A stretch of 24,000 nucleotides of DNA. Source: Methanocella sp. MCL-LM. Its GTDB lineage: Archaea > Halobacteriota > Methanocellia > Methanocellales > Methanocellaceae. The translations under genes and the position numbers were made by a program. The DNA lies in assembly GCF_049676595.1 (NCBI RefSeq), contig NZ_CP187259.1, positions 1,376,975 to 1,400,974 on the forward strand, in the 5' to 3' direction. Below, in pieces: positions 6,858 through 16,965 of the stretch; positions within the stretch are counted from its first letter, which is position 1; each line of letters starts with the position of its first letter. The notes below the pieces were generated by a model. The model was given only the letters and a program-made list of their open reading frames with translations. It searched no databases and was not told where the DNA came from.

Positions 6858-9203
6858 TTACCGGAGCAGTCTCATCCCGTTGAGGATGACGATGATGGCG
6901 GCGCCGGTGTCCGCGAACACGGCCATCCACAGGTTGGAGAAGCCCGCCACGGTCAGCCCGATGAAGACAAGCTTGACCACCAGCGAGAAGGTCACGTTTT
7001 GCTTGATGACGCCCATCATCCTGCGGCCGAGCACCACGAGGAACGACAGCTTCGAGAGATCGTTGGACATCAGGGCGATGTCGGCGGTCTCGATGGCGGT
7101 GTCTGAGCCGGTGGCGCCCATCGCTATGCCGATGGAAGCCTCTGCAAGGGCGGGGGCATCGTTGACGCCGTCGCCGACCATGGCCACGTGCCCGTACTTT
7201 TGCTTGAGCCTCGTGATCTGGCCTACTTTGTCTTCGGGCAGCAACCCTGCATAGTATTCGTCCACCCCCGTCTGGCGGGCGATGGCGCTGGCTGCCTGCT
7301 CACCGTCTCCGGTGAGCATGACGAGGTGCTGGATTTTGGCGCTGTGCAGGGCATTAAGGGCTGCGGCACTTTCGCCTCTGACCCGGTCCATGATGGCGAA
7401 GACTGCTATGATGCCCTGCGGCCCGCCCAGGATGATCGGGGTCTTGCCCGCAGCCTCGAAGGCGGCGATAGTTTTCTGCACGTCTTCGCCGAGGCTGCCG
7501 TTGAACATTCGGGCACTGCCGATGCTGTATTTTACTCCGTTGACAGTCGCACGCACGCCGGCTCCGGGGACGGCCTCGAAGGTCTCCGCTTTTAACACGC
7601 TGTTCTTGCCGTTGGCCCGCATGATGGCGGCTGCCAGGGGGTGCTCCGACCGGTCCTCGATGGCGGCGGCGAGGTGAACCGCTTCATCCCTGGTGCAGCT
7701 GTAGGTGACTACGTCGGTGACTTCGGGCCGGCCCTCGGTCAGGGTACCCGTCTTGTCGAAGGCGATCGCGTTGATGCGGCTGCACTCTTCCAGGTATGTG
7801 CCGCCCTTGATGAGGACTCCGTGCCTGGATGCGTTGCCGATAGCGGCTACTATCGATACGGGGGTCGATATGACCAGCGCGCACGGGCAGGCGATGACCA
7901 GCAGGACCAGCGCCCGGTAGAACCAGGTTTCGAAGGGCATTCCAAAGAGCGGAGGAATCGCGGCGATTGCGACGGCGGCGGCGATGACCGCCGGAGTATA
8001 GTACTTCGCAAACCTGTCCACGAACTCTTGCGCCGGGGCTTTTCGGCCCTGCGCTTCCTCGACCAGGTGGATGATATGGGACAGTGTGTTGTCCTCAAAG
8101 GTCTTCGTCACCTCGACCTCAAGCGTACCCCGCTCGTTCATGGTTCCGGCGTAGACTGTACTGCCCTTCGCCTTCTCCACCGGGACTGACTCCCCGGTGA
8201 TAGGCGCCTGGTTGACCGACGAGACGCCGTCGATGACCGTGCCGTCCATAGCGATACGCTCGCCCGGCCTGATCACTAAAACGTCGCCAGGCACGATCGA
8301 CCGCACCGGGACCTTGCGCTCTTCTCCGTTCCGTAAGACTGAAGCTTCGGCCGGCGCGAGGTTGATCAGCGACTTGATCGAGTTTCTCGTCCTGTCTAAA
8401 GTATATGATTGTAGCGCGTAGCCCACCGAGAAGAGAAAGATGACTGCTGCGCCTTCCTCCCACTGGTTGATCAGGATGGCGCCGGCTACCGCGAGCGTCA
8501 TCAGCAGGTTCATGTCCGGGGTGAGTGACTTTAGCGAGTACAGCGCGCTCCTGAAGATGTAGAAACCGCCGGTAATGATGGCGAAGGCAAAGCACAGCGT
8601 CGGCACATACCATGGCAGGCCGAGGAACGATGCAGCCATACCTGTACCGAGGCCTAAGCCCGAAACTGCAGCCGATATGATTCTCCTGTACTTCTTAAAG
8701 AAGCCGTCTTCCTGTCCGCCGTTGCCCTGCAGCCGGTAGGTATAGCCCATGCCCGAGATCGCTTTTCCGATCTCTGCTACCGGGGTAGCATGCTCCACAG
8801 TCAGGGTAGCACTGGAGAAGTTGAGCGCCGCCCTGGCTACTCCGGGCATCTCCGAGACGTACTTTTCCAGCTTGGCAGCGCAGTCGGCACAGTCCAGGCC
8901 TTCGACCTCAAAAGTATGGACTTCGATACCGTCGAGAGCTGCCTCGTACCCGCTCTTCTCGATGACACAGATCAGCTCCTCTATGCCGGTCGTGTGATCT
9001 ACGGTCAGCACTCCGGCGTTGAAGTTCAGGCTCGCTTTCTCGACGCCCGGGACTGCCTCGACTGCCCTGACCAGCTTGGCGGCACAGTCCGTGCAGTCCA
9101 GGCCGCTTACCCTGATCCGGTCGTGGCGCAGGTCTTCTTTCCTGTGCACCTGCTCAGCCATGCAGCAGCTGCATGTTTCGGTCATGGTTTTTAGCTTCTC
9201 CAT
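6858..9203 (-). CDS. Heavy-metal P1B-type ATPase, P1B-2 (Zn/Cd/Pb-type) signature, two N-terminal HMA domains
   Basis: Core motifs: DKTGTLT, TGES, MLTGD, GDGVNDAPAL. TM6 is CPCALVISTP, i.e. CPC(x)4SxP. TM7 is N(x)7K (NVTFSLVVK). TM8 is DxG(x)7N (DTGAAIIVILN). HMA motifs are GLDCTDCAAKL and GLDCADCAAKL. The start is set at the ATG at 9203 (MEKLKTMTETCSCC...), 4 nt after the arsR stop. The track start at 9263 would overlap arsR by 56 nt. Confidence 0.9.
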   Translation of the reverse strand: MEKLKTMTETCSCCMAEQVHRKEDLRHDRIRVSGLDCTDCAAKLVRAVEAVPGVEKASLNFNAGVLTVDHTTGIEELICVIEKSGYEAALDGIEVHTFEVEGLDCADCAAKLEKYVSEMPGVARAALNFSSATLTVEHATPVAEIGKAISGMGYTYRLQGNGGQEDGFFKKYRRIISAAVSGLGLGTGMAASFLGLPWYVPTLCFAFAIITGGFYIFRSALYSLKSLTPDMNLLMTLAVAGAILINQWEEGAAVIFLFSVGYALQSYTLDRTRNSIKSLINLAPAEASVLRNGEERKVPVRSIVPGDVLVIRPGERIAMDGTVIDGVSSVNQAPITGESVPVEKAKGSTVYAGTMNERGTLEVEVTKTFEDNTLSHIIHLVEEAQGRKAPAQEFVDRFAKYYTPAVIAAAVAIAAIPPLFGMPFETWFYRALVLLVIACPCALVISTPVSIVAAIGNASRHGVLIKGGTYLEECSRINAIAFDKTGTLTEGRPEVTDVVTYSCTRDEAVHLAAAIEDRSEHPLAAAIMRANGKNSVLKAETFEAVPGAGVRATVNGVKYSIGSARMFNGSLGEDVQKTIAAFEAAGKTPIILGGPQGIIAVFAIMDRVRGESAAALNALHSAKIQHLVMLTGDGEQAASAIARQTGVDEYYAGLLPEDKVGQITRLKQKYGHVAMVGDGVNDAPALAEASIGIAMGATGSDTAIETADIALMSNDLSKLSFLVVLGRRMMGVIKQNVTFSLVVKLVFIGLTVAGFSNLWMAVFADTGAAIIVILNGMRLLR

Positions 9204-9207
9204 CAAA

Positions 9208-9540
9208 TCACCCGTGGGCCACGTGCTCGACGCACAGATCAAACAACTGCTTGACATGGCCATCGTCTATCGAGTAGAATGTCGATCGGCCTTCCCTGCG
9301 CGCTTTCACTATGCGCAGCGTCCGCAGCGTGCCGAGCTGGTGAGAGATGGCCGACTGGGTCATGTCCAGCGCGGCGGCTATCTCCTGCACCTTCAGCTCC
9401 CGGTGCTCCAGGACGTCCAGGATGCGCAGCCGGGTCACATCGCCCAGCGCTTTGAAGATCTCAGCGGCGTCGGCGAGGCACCTGGCCTTTTGTTCATCCC
9501 GGCGCTGCGGGCCGATCAATTCATGGGAATGGTTGAACAT
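9208..9540 (-). CDS. ArsR/SmtB-family metal-responsive repressor with an alpha5-type site
   Basis: Winged HTH: FKALGDVTRLRILDVL...VQEIAAALDMTQSAISHQL. C-terminal DGH-x10-H-x2-H (DDGHVKQLFDLCVEHVAH) matches DxHx10Hx2H. There is no CXC in alpha3. Confidence 0.9.
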   Translation of the reverse strand: MFNHSHELIGPQRRDEQKARCLADAAEIFKALGDVTRLRILDVLEHRELKVQEIAAALDMTQSAISHQLGTLRTLRIVKARREGRSTFYSIDDGHVKQLFDLCVEHVAHG

Positions 9541-13224: not shown

Positions 13225-13761
13225 TTGAGTGGTAAACTGTTCATCTGTTGTTCTCTGATCGTAGTCGCAGGCTTACTCGTGAGCGGGTGCTGCGGCTGCT
13301 GCATTCCGACTGATCCGGGTACGCCGGATACTCCCGGAAACATCTATTCCGGTCCGGGAACCCGGACAGACATCGATAGCGACCTCGTCGGGGCATGGGG
13401 TGACTCGGGCACGATGGGTAGTCTTGTGGACTCTGCAGGCAACTATGTTGGCGCCGCATATTCGGGACAGGCCTACCGTTTCAACAGTGACGGCACTTAC
13501 ATGTACCGGATCATCGGCTCCGGCACGATCATCAAAGGCCTGGTCGAAGTCCACGGCAAATACCGGGTGAGCGGCGATCAGCTCTACCTGTACGATAATA
13601 AGGAAAGCTTCTACCCGTTTGCCGGCGAGAAAAGAGCGCCGACCAGGGACGAGCCCGGGCAAGACGAAACTTATAAGTACTGGTTCGAGGACGGGACAGA
13701 AACGCTGGCTTTGAGAAGTATAGATAGCGATTACGTAGAGCGCTTCCACCGAGCGGAATAA
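13225..13761 (+). CDS. Secreted or lipobox-like protein, hypothetical (Cys cluster after the signal peptide)
   Basis: N-terminal hydrophobic signal FICCSLIVVAGLLVSGCCGCC, then a Gly/Tyr-rich, probably beta-rich domain. TTG start in the track. Confidence 0.6.
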   Translation: MSGKLFICCSLIVVAGLLVSGCCGCCIPTDPGTPDTPGNIYSGPGTRTDIDSDLVGAWGDSGTMGSLVDSAGNYVGAAYSGQAYRFNSDGTYMYRIIGSGTIIKGLVEVHGKYRVSGDQLYLYDNKESFYPFAGEKRAPTRDEPGQDETYKYWFEDGTETLALRSIDSDYVERFHRAE

Positions 13762-13768
13762 AATTAAA

Positions 13769-13789
13769 AGGCCTGCGGGCCTATTTTTT
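13769..13789. terminator. Bidirectional hairpin terminator between convergent genes (lipoprotein gene and hgcB)
   Basis: aggcc-tgcg-ggcct (13769-13782) is flanked by AAAA upstream and TTTTTT (13784-13789) downstream, so either strand reads hairpin plus U-tract. It overlaps the hgcB stop codon (13781-13783). Confidence 0.55.
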
Positions 13790-14137
13790 CTCTCCGCACC
13801 CGCAGGACGTTTCGCTCGCCCCTGATCCGCAGCAGCCACCGTCGCCGCAGACCTCCGGGCCTCCGGTGAGCGCAGCGTGGATCATGGCAGCAGCGCAGCC
13901 TACGCCGCTCTGGACCTTGATGGCGCCAGTCGGGCAGTTGAGCTGGCAGGCGCCGCATTCCATGCAGGCTTCCTTTCGCTCGAGCTTTGCCACGGCCTTC
14001 GCCTTCATCAGCAGGTTTGTGCTCTTGCGCTCTTCGTGCCCGAAGACCGCGTGCGGGCAGACGTTCCAGCACATGCCGCAGCCTACACACTTGTTCGGTA
14101 AGTACTCCAGCGTGTTTTCTTTGTAGGAGTTGAACAT
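13781..14137 (-). CDS. hgcB: HgcB, 2x[4Fe-4S] ferredoxin partner of the mercury methylation corrinoid protein
   Basis: Two CxxCxxCxxxCP motifs (CVGCGMCWNVCP, CMECGACQLNCP). There is an additional conserved-position Cys (GVGCAAA) and a C-terminal Cys-rich tail with a vicinal pair (GGCCGSG...CGCG). The start overlaps the hgcA stop (TGATG at 14135-14139). AGGTGAT Shine-Dalgarno upstream. Confidence 0.87.
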   Translation of the reverse strand: MFNSYKENTLEYLPNKCVGCGMCWNVCPHAVFGHEERKSTNLLMKAKAVAKLERKEACMECGACQLNCPTGAIKVQSGVGCAAAMIHAALTGGPEVCGDGGCCGSGASETSCGCGEKK

Positions 14138-15138
14138 CAGATCACCTTCAGGAAATTAAGCGCTGCTACTGCGAGCTGGATGACCGTGCCGAGGCCTGCC
14201 ATGATCGCCATTATTGGGATGTACCTGTAGATCTCCTTGCGGACGCCGGTGCGGGAAGGGAACGGTGTGGCGCCGGTGAAGTTCAGCGACAGGTACGCCG
14301 TGATAGGTGGCATGATCAGCGGGAAGGTCAGCATCCACAGTGCGGTCCATACGGTTACCTGGGGGTTGCTTAGGTATGTGTACCCGGCGAACGGGAGTGC
14401 CAGTATCAGTCCGAGGAACAGTCCCTTTGAGCTGTAGTCCTTAGTCGGCAAGTACGGGAGCAGTACCGGAAAGAGCACTACGCCTGCCAGCACTGCCGTT
14501 ACCGCCGCGAGGGCGGAGACCAGGCCGCCGGTGAGGAAGCCGGCAATCGTAATCAGAATGGCCGGGATAACTGATGCCACCAGCTCTACGGGAATCAGCA
14601 CAACTCGGTCGGCTACCGGGAACTTCACTCTGCGCATCTCCGGAGTGGCTTTACTTCCGGCTTGCAGGTAGTCTTTGATATCGGCTGCCCGTACCGGGCC
14701 GTACTCTACTTTGAAGCCGCTCCGCTTCGTCACCTCGAACGCGTTGACACCCGGGGCGCCAAGCTGCGGCAGGATCAGCTTTTTATGCGACACGACGTTA
14801 GCCAGCCCGGTGACAGCGATCCGGTTGACCAGCTCGTCGGTGCCGAAGGTGCCTTTGCCGGCAGCGCACCAGACGTTGATACCATAAGTGTTAATCACCA
14901 AAATGTAGCAGTCGATACCCTTCAGCGCGGAGCGCAGGGCGTCGAAGCTGAGCGTATAGTTTGCGGTCACGAACACAGGCGATTCCTTCTCTGGCCTGCC
15001 CAGCGCATACAGGCCGGGCTCTACCAGGTGCTGGTTACGCTTCCAGGACCAGCGTGCAAGGAAATGGTCAAATCGATTTTTCCAGGTTATGTCGCTGTCG
15101 ATCGCAGCTACCATTGGTTTCACGAGCGATGCTTCCAT
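14137..15138 (-). CDS. hgcA: HgcA, corrinoid protein required for mercury methylation
   Basis: Hallmark cap-helix motif GINVWCAAGKGTFGT. The flanking conserved blocks VEPGLYALGRP, PVFVTANY, SFDALRS and LILPQLGAPGV are present. The C-terminal domain has multiple TM helices. 333 aa. Confidence 0.93.
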   Translation of the reverse strand: MEASLVKPMVAAIDSDITWKNRFDHFLARWSWKRNQHLVEPGLYALGRPEKESPVFVTANYTLSFDALRSALKGIDCYILVINTYGINVWCAAGKGTFGTDELVNRIAVTGLANVVSHKKLILPQLGAPGVNAFEVTKRSGFKVEYGPVRAADIKDYLQAGSKATPEMRRVKFPVADRVVLIPVELVASVIPAILITIAGFLTGGLVSALAAVTAVLAGVVLFPVLLPYLPTKDYSSKGLFLGLILALPFAGYTYLSNPQVTVWTALWMLTFPLIMPPITAYLSLNFTGATPFPSRTGVRKEIYRYIPIMAIMAGLGTVIQLAVAALNFLKVI

Positions 15139-15149
15139 GTCTAAACCCC

Positions 15150-15443
15150 CTACTCCGGGCCCAGTTCCTTCACCATCGGCCCAAGCATGTCCTTGACCAT
15201 GCCTGCCAGATCGTCCGCCTTAACTAAGGACATGCAGCAGACTGCGCCGTCCTTCTCCCAGCTCACGATGGCCAGCTTGTCGCCGGGCTTGATGCCCGCC
15301 CGGTCTCTCAGGTCTTTGGGGAGCACCATCTGCCCCCGCTCGTCCACGCTGACCAGCGCTTCGACCTTCCAGGTCTGTAGCTGGGGTTTTGAGGGCGTAT
15401 CACAGCAGCCTGGCTCCGGCGAGTTCTTCAGCTTCTTTACCAT
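15150..15443 (-). CDS. AbrB/SpoVT-domain protein with two Cys-Cys pairs, apparently co-operonic with hgcAB
   Basis: SpoVT-AbrB swapped-hairpin signature VSVDERGQMVLPKDLRDRAGIKPGDKLAIV. Vicinal cysteines at PEPGCCDTP and DGAVCCMSL. The stop lies 11 nt before the hgcA ATG, with GGGGGT Shine-Dalgarno-like sequence in the gap. Confidence 0.8.
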   Translation of the reverse strand: MVKKLKNSPEPGCCDTPSKPQLQTWKVEALVSVDERGQMVLPKDLRDRAGIKPGDKLAIVSWEKDGAVCCMSLVKADDLAGMVKDMLGPMVKELGPE

Positions 15444-15493
15444 CTTATCACAATCCCCTCTACAACTGTATCCTATATAAGCATTCTGATTAT

Positions 15494-15507
15494 TCTGAAT
15501 ATTCAGA
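15494..15507. promoter_or_regulatory. Perfect 14-bp palindrome TCTGAATATTCAGA just upstream of the TATA-like box of the abrB-like/hgcAB unit
   Basis: The palindrome is at 15494-15507, with an extra TTCTGA half-site at 15485-15490. The TATA-like GCTTATATAGGA (minus strand, 15471-15482) lies about 34 nt upstream of the ATG at 15443. Confidence 0.4.
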
Positions 15508-15533: not shown

Positions 15534-16190
15534 TTACGTGGTCCAGCTCAGCAGGACATCTGCGTTTCGCTCCGGTGCTTTTCTGCCCTCGTTAGTCGGG
15601 TAGCCGAAGGCCAGCGTCGCCATCATCCCGTATCCAGCCGGGACTTTCAGCTCCTCTCTGGTTTTCCTGTCAGTCCCAAGCGGCGCTGCCAGGCCGATCC
15701 AGCAGCTGCCCAGCCCGAGGGAAGCCGCAGCCAGCATCATGTTCTCGGCTGCGCAGGCGCAGTCTTCCCTGATCAGGCGGCTTTTCGGGGCAAAGATAAA
15801 GACCAGCGCGGGCGCATGGTGGAACAGGTGGAGGCCTGGCGCTTTCATCATCTTCGCATACCGTGCGATGCCCGGTCCTCCCAGACCTGTGGCCGCGGCT
15901 ACTTTTAAACCGATGTTCTGCTGCCACAGCTGCTTCGCCCGGTCTGCATACCTGTCAATATCTGCTTCCCCCGTCACCACGGCGAAACGCCACAGCTGCT
16001 GGTTCATGGCCGTAGGCGCAAATGTGCCGGCCTTGATGATCTCGAGCAGCACCTCGTCGGGCACAGGATCAGGCTTGTAGCTCCTGACGGATCGCCGGCT
16101 GTAGATATTCTCGAGTACCGGGTTTGAGAACTTTGCAGACGGGCGATCGCCGGCTGGCAGAGCAGGGATTACTCCTTCACTGGTTGTCAT
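15534..16190 (-). CDS. Nitroreductase family protein
   Basis: YSRRSVRSYKPDPVP and AGTFAPTAMNQQLWRF signatures of the FMN nitroreductase fold. 218 aa. Confidence 0.85.
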   Translation of the reverse strand: MTTSEGVIPALPAGDRPSAKFSNPVLENIYSRRSVRSYKPDPVPDEVLLEIIKAGTFAPTAMNQQLWRFAVVTGEADIDRYADRAKQLWQQNIGLKVAAATGLGGPGIARYAKMMKAPGLHLFHHAPALVFIFAPKSRLIREDCACAAENMMLAAASLGLGSCWIGLAAPLGTDRKTREELKVPAGYGMMATLAFGYPTNEGRKAPERNADVLLSWTT

Positions 16191-16334: not shown

Positions 16335-16724
16335 TCAGGCATACTTTTTCATGAACTCCTCCGGGGTGTAGACTTCATCGACCCACCCGAAGTGCTTCTT
16401 GTTGTTGGTGATCAATGGAATTTTCCGCTTGTATGCATAAGCGCCGATGGCATAGTCTACGGCGTGGGCCGACAGGTCGTACTTTATGAGCGCATTATTG
16501 GCCGCTATCAAGGCGAGCGACCTATCAAAGGGTACGATCTCGATATCCAGCCCTGCTAACGCACTGATAAAATTCGCCACAGATCCGTCCGCTCTCCTCA
16601 TCTGGTAGTACGAAAGCTCCATGAACGCATGGGCGGGGAGATAGCCTTTTACATTTTTCTCTTCCATCCAGAGCAGGAACTCCGGGCCACTGCTGAAGAC
16701 GTTCGTATCGAGGCAGACATCCAT
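16335..16724 (-). CDS. vapC: PIN-domain toxin VapC
   Basis: Acidic PIN residues in the expected order: N-terminal LDTNV, MEL, AVDYAIGA and LITNN. 129 aa. Starts 4 nt after the vapB stop. Confidence 0.85.
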   Translation of the reverse strand: MDVCLDTNVFSSGPEFLLWMEEKNVKGYLPAHAFMELSYYQMRRADGSVANFISALAGLDIEIVPFDRSLALIAANNALIKYDLSAHAVDYAIGAYAYKRKIPLITNNKKHFGWVDEVYTPEEFMKKYA

Positions 16725-16728
16725 CTGT

Positions 16729-16965
16729 TTAGCCTTCCCTGAACATTCTGTCGAAGCCTTTCCTGAATTCTTTGTCAGTTTTATCCAGGTCCTTGAAGCC
16801 CTCTACCATCTCGTAGACGAGGTCCTTCAGGCTCTTGATGATGATCCTGTCATCTTCTTCGATGAAGACTACTTTATCACCTGGCTTTACTCCAAGCTTC
16901 TTTCGGACATCGCCTGGCAGAGTTATCTGATTTTGGCTCGATACTTTACTCGATACTGATTCCAT
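16729..16965 (-). CDS. vapB: AbrB/SpoVT-type antitoxin VapB
   Basis: QITLPGDVRKKLGVKPGDKVVFIEEDDRIIIKS is an AbrB-type fold signature. 78 aa, immediately upstream of the PIN gene. Confidence 0.85.
   Translation of the reverse strand: MESVSSKVSSQNQITLPGDVRKKLGVKPGDKVVFIEEDDRIIIKSLKDLVYEMVEGFKDLDKTDKEFRKGFDRMFREG

What the first reader, a model, noticed from the sequence alone, without database searches (positions are those of the whole stretch)
15150..15443. AbrB/SpoVT-domain protein with two vicinal Cys-Cys motifs as an apparent first gene of the hgcAB operon
- **Seen:** a 97-aa ORF on the same strand ends 11 nt before the hgcA ATG, with a GGGGGT Shine-Dalgarno-like gap. hgcA and hgcB overlap by one nucleotide, so the three genes look like a single translationally coupled unit.
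- **Seen:** the protein has a clear SpoVT/AbrB swapped-hairpin DNA-binding signature (VSVDERGQMVLPKDLRDRAGIKPGDKLAIV). It also carries two CC pairs (PEPGCCDTP, AVCCMSL).
- **Established:** vicinal cysteines are classic Hg(II) ligands in the MerA C-terminus, MerT and the HgcB C-terminal CC. Where an hgcAB regulator has been discussed, it has been an ArsR-type gene upstream in some bacteria.
- **Inference:** this could be an AbrB-fold, thiol-based Hg(II)/metal-sensing regulator or a metallochaperone feeding HgcAB. That would be a different solution from ArsR. I cannot check whether a curated family model already exists for this protein.
Basis: partly seen in the sequence, partly recalled or inferred. 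Interest (0 to 1): 0.8.

Follow-up and report, generated by a model that had tools for sequence, protein, structure and literature searches.

The report
Cysteine-rich AbrB regulator of metal(loid)-methylation genes
The small gene in front of the mercury-methylation genes hgcAB is real and already catalogued as "HgcC", but in other genomes the same protein, with the same DNA-binding-site array, mostly sits in front of the arsenic-methylation gene arsM, so it is most likely an arsenic- or soft-metal-sensing repressor rather than a mercury-specific part.

Summary
**Observation: confirmed.**
- A 97-aa ORF (15150-15443, minus strand) ends 11 nt before hgcA, and hgcA and hgcB overlap by 1 nt.
- The protein has an AbrB/SpoVT-type domain and two Cys-Cys pairs.

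**Already known.**
- It scores 129.5 bits (cutoff 70) on the curated NCBIfam model NF040962, "HgcAB-associated protein HgcC".
- It is 100% identical to a protein named HgcC in Methanocella sp. MCL-LM.
- Zhang et al. 2023 reported an AbrB/PrlF-type gene upstream of hgcA.

**Not found in the literature I could search.**
1. Of 73 informative genome loci encoding close homologues, 62 have arsM (arsenite methyltransferase) immediately downstream and 10 have hgcAB. None lacks both. The two groups cannot be separated by sequence.
2. Almost all these genes are preceded by 2-5 TCWGA pentamers in strict 9-bp register. In the window these lie at 15507-15485, abutting a TATA-like box. In bacteria they cover the -10/start-site region.
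3. C70 is invariant. C69, C13 and C14 are about 90-95% conserved.

**Best reading:** an autoregulated AbrB-fold repressor whose thiolates sense a soft metal(loid). As(III) is more likely than Hg(II). It works like ArsR in a different fold. DNA binding and metal binding are untested.

The parts
15150..15443 (-). hgcC: a 97-aa AbrB/SpoVT-domain protein and first gene of the operon. It has a disordered N-terminal tail (residues 1-24), an AbrB core (about residues 27-75) and a C-terminal helix (residues 76-94).
   Evidence: ORF. NF040962 HgcC at 129.5 bits against a cutoff of 70. PF04014. 100% identical to NCBI 'HgcC [Methanocella sp. MCL-LM]'. AF2 model.
15402..15407 (-). Codons for C13-C14, the distal vicinal cysteine pair in the disordered N-terminal tail.
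   Evidence: C13 is Cys in 58/64 and C14 in 57/64 aligned homologues. pLDDT is below 50 in this region.
15234..15239 (-). Codons for C69-C70, the core vicinal cysteine pair in the last beta-strand of the AbrB domain.
   Evidence: C70 is Cys in 64/64 and C69 in 61/64 homologues. The pair lies in strand 67-75 of the model.
15485..15507 (-). Predicted operator: three TCWGA pentamers in 9-bp register (TCTGA 15507-15503, TCAGA 15498-15494, TCAGA 15489-15485).
   Evidence: This is the only TCWGA-N4-TCWGA site in the 24-kb window, as 2 overlapping matches against 0.08 expected. The same array lies upstream of homologues in bacteria and archaea.
15474..15480 (-). TATA-box-like TTATATA, 4 nt downstream of the last pentamer and about 31-37 nt upstream of the hgcC ATG. 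This is an inferred archaeal promoter element.
   Evidence: Read directly from the sequence. Archaeal relatives have TTAAATA or TATAAATA in the same position relative to the array.
15139..15152 (-). The hgcC stop codon (TAG) and the 11-nt spacer with a GGGGG Shine-Dalgarno-like run before the hgcA ATG. There is no room here for a separate promoter.
   Evidence: Sequence.
14137..15138 (-). hgcA, the corrinoid protein of mercury methylation (contains NVWCAAGK).
   Evidence: NF040863 at 445 bits against a cutoff of 275.
13781..14137 (-). hgcB, the 2x[4Fe-4S] ferredoxin with a C-terminal CC. It overlaps hgcA by 1 nt.
   Evidence: NF040864 at 114 bits against a cutoff of 99. Coordinates.
13760..13782 (-). 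A hairpin (AGGCCCGCAGGCCT) followed by a T-rich tract at the hgcB stop codon. This is the likely end of the transcription unit.
   Evidence: This is only a consensus-type match and is not evidence of function.

Best explanation
**What it is.** hgcC encodes a small AbrB/SpoVT-fold DNA-binding protein. It is the autoregulated first gene of an hgcC-hgcA-hgcB operon.

**How it most likely works.**
- As a dimer or higher oligomer it binds an array of TCWGA pentamers spaced 9 bp apart.
- In this archaeon the array abuts the TATA box. In bacteria it covers the -10/start-site region. Binding there would block transcription initiation.
- Its conserved cysteines are a vicinal pair in the last strand of the AbrB core plus one or two Cys or Cys-Cys clusters in a flexible N-terminal tail. 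They are proposed to bind a thiophilic metal(loid), which releases the protein from DNA and switches on the methylation genes.
- Most members of the same family, with the same operator, control arsM, so the cognate signal is most likely As(III) or a related trivalent metalloid rather than Hg(II).
- It works like ArsR but is built on a different fold.

**Shown here:** the gene, the fold family, synteny with arsM or hgcAB, cysteine conservation, and the conserved operator-like array with its promoter position.

**Inferred:** DNA binding by this protein, repression rather than activation, metal(loid) binding, and which metal is sensed.
For: **Fold**
- PF04014 and TIGR01439 hits.
- A profile search hits the SpoVT, Sulfolobus AbrB-family and AbrB N-domains.
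- The AF2 model's best Foldseek matches are SpoVT, AbrB-N, C68, Sso7c4 and MazE.
- R46, K43 and P42 are invariant. R46 aligns with the Arg-Arg of the SpoVT DNA-binding helix.

**Synteny**
- Of 73 genome loci with downstream sequence, 62 have arsM immediately downstream on the same strand (NF008823, 349-368 bits). Ten have hgcA-hgcB, one has arsM one gene further on, and none lacks both.
- The arsM-linked and hgcAB-linked copies cannot be separated. Mean identities are 65-66% within and between groups, and nearest neighbours are mixed.
- Five arsM-linked copies tested score 119-133 bits on the HgcC model.

**Operator**
- TCAGA/TCTGA occurs 1.96 times per 130-nt upstream region, against 0.25 in shuffles.
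- Spacing is strictly 9 bp.
- 62 of 77 regions have at least 3 units in register.
- 47 of 50 exact two-unit matches in 80 genome loci lie just upstream of the gene, and one more lies upstream of arsM in L042.
- In 80 metagenome hgcA loci the pattern occurs only in front of hgcC, in 15 of 19 hgcC-bearing loci and in none of the loci without a detected hgcC.
- In bacteria the units peak at +28 to +49 from the start of the -35 hexamer. In archaea they bracket the TATA box.

**Cysteines**
- C70 is Cys in 64/64, C69 in 61/64, C13 in 58/64 and C14 in 57/64 homologues.
- Among 50%-identity cluster representatives, 117/131 keep a core Cys and 110/122 have a Cys in the tail.

**Analogy**
- hgcA loci without hgcC carry ArsR or MarR regulators with vicinal Cys in the same position.
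- The ArsR2 of P. mercurii is co-transcribed with hgcAB and responds to arsenic but not to Hg (10.1101/2022.10.17.512643).
- The linked ArsM enzymes carry a similar SCC-x-SCC tail.
Against: - No experiment shows DNA or metal binding for any member of this family.
- The N-tail cysteines are not universal. The window's protein lacks the proximal Cys (it has W25) that 40/64 homologues have.
- Three arsM-linked homologues (L005, L016, L036) have SC instead of the core CC.
- Vicinal cysteines inside a beta-strand point to opposite faces, so a chelate formed within one strand is geometrically awkward. Any site must involve the tail or the second subunit.
- The monomer model cannot show the dimer.
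- In archaea, an array upstream of the TATA box could also belong to an activator.
- The 80 genome loci are the 80 hits most similar to the query, drawn from a list truncated at 600 pattern matches (590 confirmed). They are not a random sample.
Confidence: 0.55

Rival explanations
1. Hg(II)-specific sensor. The CC pairs bind Hg(II), and the protein switches hgcAB on in response to mercury.
For: - Vicinal thiols are good Hg(II) ligands (established chemistry).
- The window copy controls hgcAB.
- The cysteines are conserved.
Against: - 62 of 73 family members are linked to arsM rather than hgcAB, and no sequence or Cys-pattern difference separates the two groups.
- Published work reports that hgcAB transcription and methylation are not induced by Hg (10.1101/2022.10.17.512643). 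That work was done in bacteria with other regulators.
Confidence: 0.08
2. A regulator that does not sense a metal(loid). The cysteines would be structural (for example a Zn site), or form a redox/disulfide switch or an Fe-S site, so that the oxygen-sensitive methylation enzymes are expressed only under reducing conditions.
For: - All hosts sampled are anaerobes.
- HgcAB and anaerobe-type ArsM are thiol-rich and oxygen-sensitive.
- The operator evidence fits any kind of effector.
Against: - The link is exclusive to two soft-metal(loid) methylation systems (73/73 loci). A general redox switch would not be expected to show this.
- Regulators of other folds at the same position belong to the ArsR metal-sensor family.
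Confidence: 0.2
3. Metallochaperone or substrate-delivery adaptor (like ArsD). The Cys-rich tail captures As(III) or Hg(II) and hands it to ArsM or HgcAB. DNA binding would be secondary or absent.
For: - Tight, possibly translationally coupled linkage to the enzyme gene.
- The tail motif resembles the ArsM N-terminal CC-x-CC region.
- From my own recall, not tested here: ArsD also has vicinal Cys pairs and is both a chaperone and a weak repressor.
Against: - The conserved TCWGA array at its own promoter travels with the gene across both domains of life, and the DNA-contact Arg/Lys residues are invariant. Both argue for DNA binding as a core function.
- One family would have to serve two unrelated enzymes (ArsM and HgcA).
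Confidence: 0.12
4. Antitoxin of a type II toxin-antitoxin module (PrlF/MazE-like), with hgcAB co-regulated by that module. This is the published interpretation (PMC10349881).
For: - Pfam names the domain MazE_antitoxin, and JGI annotates many homologues as 'antitoxin PrlF'.
Against: - None of the 73 informative loci has a toxin gene next to it. The neighbour is always arsM or hgcA.
- A genuine AbrB+PIN pair lies 1 kb away in the same window (16335-16965) and shows what such a module looks like.
- There is no PrlF Pfam hit for HgcC.
Confidence: 0.02

Closest known systems
ArsR/SmtB-family As(III)-responsive repressors, including the ArsR-like ArsR2 co-transcribed with hgcAB in Pseudodesulfovibrio mercurii ND132
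   Same: - A small protein encoded as the first gene of the operon it controls.
- Cysteine clusters, including vicinal Cys.
- Sits directly upstream of hgcAB or arsM.
- ArsR-type genes occupy exactly this position in hgcA loci that lack hgcC (10.1101/2022.10.17.512643).
   Different: - The fold is AbrB swapped-hairpin, not winged helix-turn-helix. There is no PF01022 hit.
- The operator is a 9-bp-register array of TCWGA pentamers rather than an ArsR-type imperfect inverted repeat (the ArsR operator form is from my own recall, not tested here).
- Metal binding is untested.
AbrB / SpoVT / MazE / MraZ / Sso7c4 swapped-hairpin DNA-binding proteins (PF04014, TIGR01439)
   Same: - The same N-terminal domain by HMM and by predicted fold.
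- The loop-helix Arg is conserved.
- From my own recall, not tested here: these proteins typically bind as oligomers to short repeated motifs (MraZ: TGGGN repeats at 10 bp).
   Different: - None of these is known to me as a metal(loid) sensor.
- HgcC adds a Cys-rich disordered N-tail, a CC pair in beta-4 and a single conserved C-terminal helix containing LGP.
- It has no toxin partner and no GAF or other C-terminal domain.
NCBIfam NF040962 'HgcAB-associated protein HgcC', and the 'TA-associated prlF/abrB gene' of Zhang et al. 2023
   Same: - This is that family. The window protein scores 129.5 bits and is annotated HgcC in GenBank.
   Different: - The name implies that the family is specific to HgcAB. 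Here, most members that pass the model's cutoff sit in front of arsM.
- The toxin-antitoxin reading is not supported.
ArsD arsenic metallochaperone
   Same: - Vicinal cysteine pairs.
- Encoded in an operon with the arsenic-handling enzyme it serves.
- A dual repressor and chaperone history (from my own recall, not tested here).
   Different: - ArsD has a thioredoxin-like fold and no AbrB domain.
- No conserved TCWGA-type operator is known for it.

Membership tests
NCBIfam NF040962 HgcC (equivalog) | Whole-protein score at or above the curated cutoff of 70 bits. | tested here: met
   129.5 bits, model positions 2-70 of 70.
NCBIfam NF040962 HgcC (equivalog) | Encoded next to hgcA-hgcB. | tested here: met
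   Met for the window: an 11-nt gap to hgcA. Across the family, only 10 of 73 informative loci are hgcAB-linked and 62 are arsM-linked. Five arsM-linked copies tested score 119-133 bits, so the model does not single out hgcAB-linked proteins.
AbrB/SpoVT/MazE swapped-hairpin domain (PF04014 / TIGR01439) | Domain HMM match above the gathering score. | tested here: met
   PF04014 at 32.6 bits against 24.7. TIGR01439 at 36.4 bits against 28.3.
AbrB/SpoVT/MazE swapped-hairpin domain (PF04014 / TIGR01439) | Beta-alpha-beta-beta topology that matches solved AbrB-type N-domains. | tested here: met
   The AF2 core has pLDDT 87-90. The top Foldseek hits are SpoVT, AbrB-N, C68, Sso7c4 and MazE, with probability 0.8-0.99 and target-normalised TM-scores up to 0.70. 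E-values are weak because the domain is short.
AbrB/SpoVT/MazE swapped-hairpin domain (PF04014 / TIGR01439) | Homodimeric swapped-hairpin barrel that binds DNA. | not testable with these tools
   Only a monomer could be modelled. DNA binding is inferred from the co-occurring TCWGA array.
Type II toxin-antitoxin antitoxin (MazE/PrlF/VapB) | A cognate toxin gene adjacent in the same operon. | tested here: not met
   The downstream gene is hgcA here, and arsM or hgcA in 73 of 73 informative loci. The upstream gene is a nitroreductase.
ArsR/SmtB metalloregulators | Winged helix-turn-helix domain (PF01022). | tested here: not met
   No PF01022 hit. The protein is therefore an analogue of ArsR, not a member of that family.
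ArsR/SmtB metalloregulators | A Cys-thiolate metal(loid) site that controls DNA binding. | not testable with these tools
   Only conservation of the cysteines could be shown.
ArsD metallochaperone | Thioredoxin-like fold with the Cys12/13/18 site. | tested here: not met
   The fold is AbrB-type. Only the presence of vicinal Cys pairs is shared.

The most novel reading that the evidence does not exclude
HgcC would define a new structural class of metal(loid)-sensing transcription factors: an AbrB swapped-hairpin fold with a Cys-thiolate site. Through one conserved operator (TCWGA pentamers in 9-bp register), it would place hgcAB and arsM in the same As(III)-responsive regulon across many bacterial and archaeal phyla. 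That would imply that mercury methylation by HgcAB is expressed as part of an arsenic or soft-metalloid response. HgcC is therefore misnamed as HgcAB-specific.
Probability: 0.4. Interest if true: 0.8.

Novelty: new variant of a known kind. Interest (0 to 1): 0.6.

Why it matters
What controls hgcAB expression, and what HgcAB is natively for, are open questions in mercury biogeochemistry. hgcA abundance predicts methylmercury production poorly.

**If HgcC is an As(III)-responsive repressor shared by arsM and hgcAB:**
- Arsenic exposure could gate methylmercury production in methanogens, Methanoperedens, Syntrophales, Dehalococcoidia, Aminicenantes and other groups.
- The "toxin-antitoxin" label currently used for the archaeal regulator would be wrong.
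- The NCBI product name would be misleading for most family members.

**What it would add to the field:**
- An AbrB-fold member in the catalogue of metalloregulator families.
- A concrete 23-bp operator for EMSA, reporter and regulon-prediction work.

Tried and rejected
**Hypotheses rejected**
- The toxin-antitoxin reading: no toxin gene is adjacent in any of the 73 loci.
- A split of the family into hgcAB-type and arsM-type subfamilies: identities and nearest neighbours are fully mixed, and Cys patterns do not differ between the groups.

**Searches that found nothing**
- A second hgcC or an arsM in the window: none. The only other hit is the unrelated VapB-like AbrB gene at 16729-16965.
- TCWGA arrays elsewhere in the window, as possible further regulon members: none.
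- Homologues of the Cys-rich lipoprotein next to hgcB in other loci: none.
- Literature searches for HgcC, arsM+AbrB, 'arsenite methyltransferase'+AbrB and arsM+PrlF/MazE/SpoVT found no description of the arsM link.

**Technical limits**
- The sigma-70 promoter scan is not meaningful for an archaeon and found nothing relevant.
- Dimer or DNA-complex modelling was not possible, because only single native sequences can be submitted.
- The look-up of the M. arvoryzae homologue P0006 returned nothing.
- The published version of the ArsR2 paper (PMC10132117) is not held, so I used the preprint.

Full report
**1.
- The window carries a 97-aa ORF at 15150-15443 on the minus strand.
- Its TAG stop (15152-15150) is followed by 11 nt, which include a GGGGG run, and then the ATG of a 333-aa gene (14137-15138). 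That gene overlaps a 118-aa gene (13781-14137) by one nucleotide.
- The two downstream genes are HgcA (NF040863, 445 bits, cutoff 275) and HgcB (NF040864, 114 bits, cutoff 99).
- The small protein has an AbrB/SpoVT/MazE domain: PF04014 at 32.6 bits and TIGR01439 at 36.4 bits.
- It has Cys-Cys pairs at residues 13-14 and 69-70.
- It is a real, conserved gene. There are 2150 homologues at E<=1e-3 and 369 clusters (50% identity) at E<=1e-10.

**2. It is already catalogued.**
One exists: NCBIfam NF040962 ('near_HgcAB', 'HgcAB-associated protein HgcC', equivalog). The protein scores 129.5 bits against a cutoff of 70.
- The identical sequence is annotated HgcC in Methanocella sp. MCL-LM.
- Zhang et al. 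2023 (PMC10349881) reported an abrB/prlF/mazE-type gene directly upstream of hgcA. They found it in 14 of 35 contigs and in 8 of 31 confirmed methylators (6 of them archaeal). They called it a toxin-antitoxin-associated putative regulator and did not discuss the cysteines.
- McDaniel et al. [quoted passage not shown] This is probably the same family, but I could not verify that.

**3. The family is not specific to hgcAB.**
I examined the 80 most similar loci.
- Of the 73 loci with enough downstream sequence, 62 have an arsenite methyltransferase gene (arsM) immediately downstream on the same strand, with gaps of 18-293 nt. Ten have hgcA-hgcB there, and one has arsM one gene further on. None has neither.
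- The four arsM neighbours I tested score 349-368 bits on NF008823 (cutoff 263). Five arsM-linked HgcC homologues score 119-133 bits on the HgcC model, the same range as the window protein.
- The two groups cannot be separated by sequence. Mean core identity is 65.5% among hgcAB-linked copies, 66.3% among arsM-linked copies and 65.1% between the groups. The nearest relatives of hgcAB-linked copies are often arsM-linked.
- An independent look-up with gene calls shows the same arrangement: a methyltransferase lies downstream of P0033.
- Mixed arrangements also exist. L042 has hgcC-hgcAB and, 3 kb downstream, a second promoter and operator followed by a 10-codon hgcC remnant and arsM. L152 has hgcC-arsM about 0.7 kb upstream of hgcAB.
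- In the reverse direction, I examined 64 metagenomic hgcA loci with upstream sequence (46-63% identical to the window HgcA). Eighteen have hgcC directly upstream.
- Many of the others carry one of the following in that position:
  - an ArsR-family regulator with CCC and CC motifs;
  - a MarR-family regulator with CC motifs;
  - an ArsP permease;
  - an arsM-like methyltransferase.

**4. A conserved operator travels with the gene.**
- The 130 nt upstream of 77 family genes are strongly enriched in TCAGA/TCTGA, at 1.96 per region against 0.25 in shuffles. AATCAGA is about 32-fold enriched over the locus background.
- The spacing is strict. Same-orientation cores lie 9 bp apart. Opposite-orientation pairs lie 8 or 10 bp apart start to start, which is again 9 bp centre to centre.
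- 62 of 77 regions have at least three TCWGA-like units in one 9-bp register, with A/T-rich 4-nt spacers.
- In the window the array is TCTGA (15507-15503), TCAGA (15498-15494) and TCAGA (15489-15485). Four nucleotides further on lies TTATATA (15480-15474), about 31-37 nt before the ATG.
- TCWGA-N4-TCWGA occurs nowhere else in the 24 kb (2 overlapping matches, 0.08 expected).
- In the 80 genome loci, 47 of 50 exact matches lie just upstream of the family gene and one lies upstream of the L042 arsM.
- In the 80 metagenome hgcA loci, the pattern occurs only in front of hgcC: in 15 of 19 hgcC-bearing loci and in none of the loci without a detected hgcC.
- In the 51 upstream regions that contain a TTGACA hexamer, the units peak at +28-31, +37-40 and +46-49 from its start. 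That places them over the -10 element and the transcription start.
- In archaeal loci the array ends just upstream of the TATA-like box. Often a further unit lies 18 bp on, so the TATA box fills one 'slot' of the register.
- A DNA motif that stays with one small DNA-binding-fold protein across both domains of life, at repressor-type positions, is strong indirect evidence. It indicates that the protein binds this motif and regulates its own operon.

**5. Protein anatomy.**
- The AF2 model (mean pLDDT 73.7; 87-90 over residues 31-80) shows four elements:
  - a disordered tail (residues 1-24, containing C13-C14);
  - the AbrB-type helix (residues 43-49);
  - a hairpin (57-64 and 67-75), with C69-C70 in its second strand;
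  - a C-terminal helix (76-94) containing the invariant G88-P89.
- The best structural matches are SpoVT, AbrB-N, C68, Sso7c4 and MazE.
- The profile search hits SpoVT (E 7.7e-5) and Sulfolobus AbrB-family proteins.
- D34, R36, G37, Q38, M39, V40, P42, K43, R46, G54, K56, G66, C70, G88 and P89 are invariant in 64 homologues.
- C70 is Cys in 64/64, C69 in 61/64, C13 in 58/64 and C14 in 57/64 homologues.
- Position 25 (W here) is Cys in 40/64 and aromatic in the rest. Position 24 is Cys in 29/64. Most relatives therefore have three Cys clusters, and the Methanocella clade has two.
- Among more divergent cluster representatives, 117/131 keep at least one core Cys and 110/122 have at least one tail Cys.
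- The linked ArsM enzymes carry a similar SCC-x(3-8)-SCC region near their N-termini. All 52 examined have at least one CC and 36 have two.

**6. Interpretation.**
- The best-supported model is an autoregulated AbrB-fold repressor of metal(loid)-methylation operons that uses thiolates to sense a soft metal(loid).
- The identity of the ligand is inferred. As(III) is favoured for three reasons:
  - About 85% of sampled family members control arsM.
  - The functionally analogous ArsR2 of P. mercurii responds to arsenic.
  - hgcAB is reported not to be Hg-inducible.
- Hg(II) binding is chemically plausible and is not excluded.
- The rival readings are a redox, structural or Fe-S role for the cysteines, an ArsD-like chaperone role, and the toxin-antitoxin reading. 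I score each separately. The toxin-antitoxin reading is contradicted by the absence of any toxin gene.

**7. Novelty and verdict.**
- The gene, its AbrB domain and its position before hgcAB are known.
- I did not find the following in the searchable literature: the dominant arsM linkage, the shared TCWGA/9-bp operator, and the conserved Cys architecture that points to an AbrB-fold metal(loid) sensor.
- I rate the finding a new variant of a known kind: an ArsR-like operon-first metalloregulator in a different fold.
- Interest is 0.6. It is lowered because the core observation is already annotated and published. It is raised because the result gives a directly testable link between arsenic sensing and mercury methylation.

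Noticed in passing
window 16335-16965 (-): A genuine AbrB-type antitoxin (78 aa, PF04014) plus a PIN-domain toxin (129 aa) form a VapBC-like pair 1 kb from hgcC. Its AbrB domain is 39% identical to HgcC over 41 aa. It shows what a real TA module with this fold looks like.
   Followed up: partly
window 15534-16190 (-); L001:7649-8269; L040:6527-7096: A nitroreductase-family gene lies immediately upstream of hgcC. A 73%-identical orthologue sits directly downstream of hgcB in a Methanocellaceae MAG (L001). A distant relative lies between hgcC and arsM in L040. This recurrent neighbour is unexplained.
   Followed up: partly
window 13225-13761 (+): A 178-aa putative lipoprotein has a signal-peptide-like N-terminus followed by GCCGCC. 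It converges on hgcB. It has only a weak Lipocalin_4 hit (E 0.005) and no homologue in the 160 fetched loci.
   Followed up: partly
window 6858-9263 (-): An 801-aa P-type ATPase with two heavy-metal-associated (HMA) domains lies about 6 kb from the hgc operon. The rest of the window is archaeal housekeeping genes (SRP54, Pus10, L21e, Rpb4/RpoF, KsgA).
   Followed up: no
L042:9380-9560: In a Syntrophales MAG with hgcC-hgcAB, a second TTGACA promoter with the TCWGA array lies 3 kb downstream. It precedes a 10-codon remnant of hgcC and then arsM. One regulator copy would apparently serve both operons.
   Followed up: yes
L072:5805-6000: The promoter-plus-operator segment upstream of hgcC (TTGACA...AATCAGTATAATCAGAATATTCTGATTA) is tandemly duplicated, with copies about 77 bp apart.
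   Followed up: no
L152:1142-4338: A metagenome contig carries the operator, hgcC and arsM, followed about 0.7 kb later by hgcA-hgcB. In eight further hgcA loci (L081, L082, L089, L097, L103, L119, L141, L144) an arsM-like methyltransferase lies beside hgcAB without hgcC.
   Followed up: partly
L118, L131-L133, L096; L150, L156-L158, L160: hgcA loci that lack hgcC carry other Cys-rich regulators directly upstream. Some are ArsR-family regulators (CCC in helix 3 and a second CC). Others are MarR-family regulators (RCCxxDEAxC and a C-terminal CC). With AbrB, that makes three DNA-binding families, all with vicinal cysteines, at the same position.
   Followed up: partly
window residue 25 of HgcC (codon 15371-15369): This position is Cys in 40/64 homologues and otherwise always aromatic (F 14, W 7, Y 3). 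The Cys-to-aromatic exchange is unexplained.
   Followed up: no
window 15187-15480 (+): A 97-aa ORF runs antisense to hgcC. It is most likely a shadow ORF of the GC-rich coding strand. I did not examine it further.
   Followed up: no
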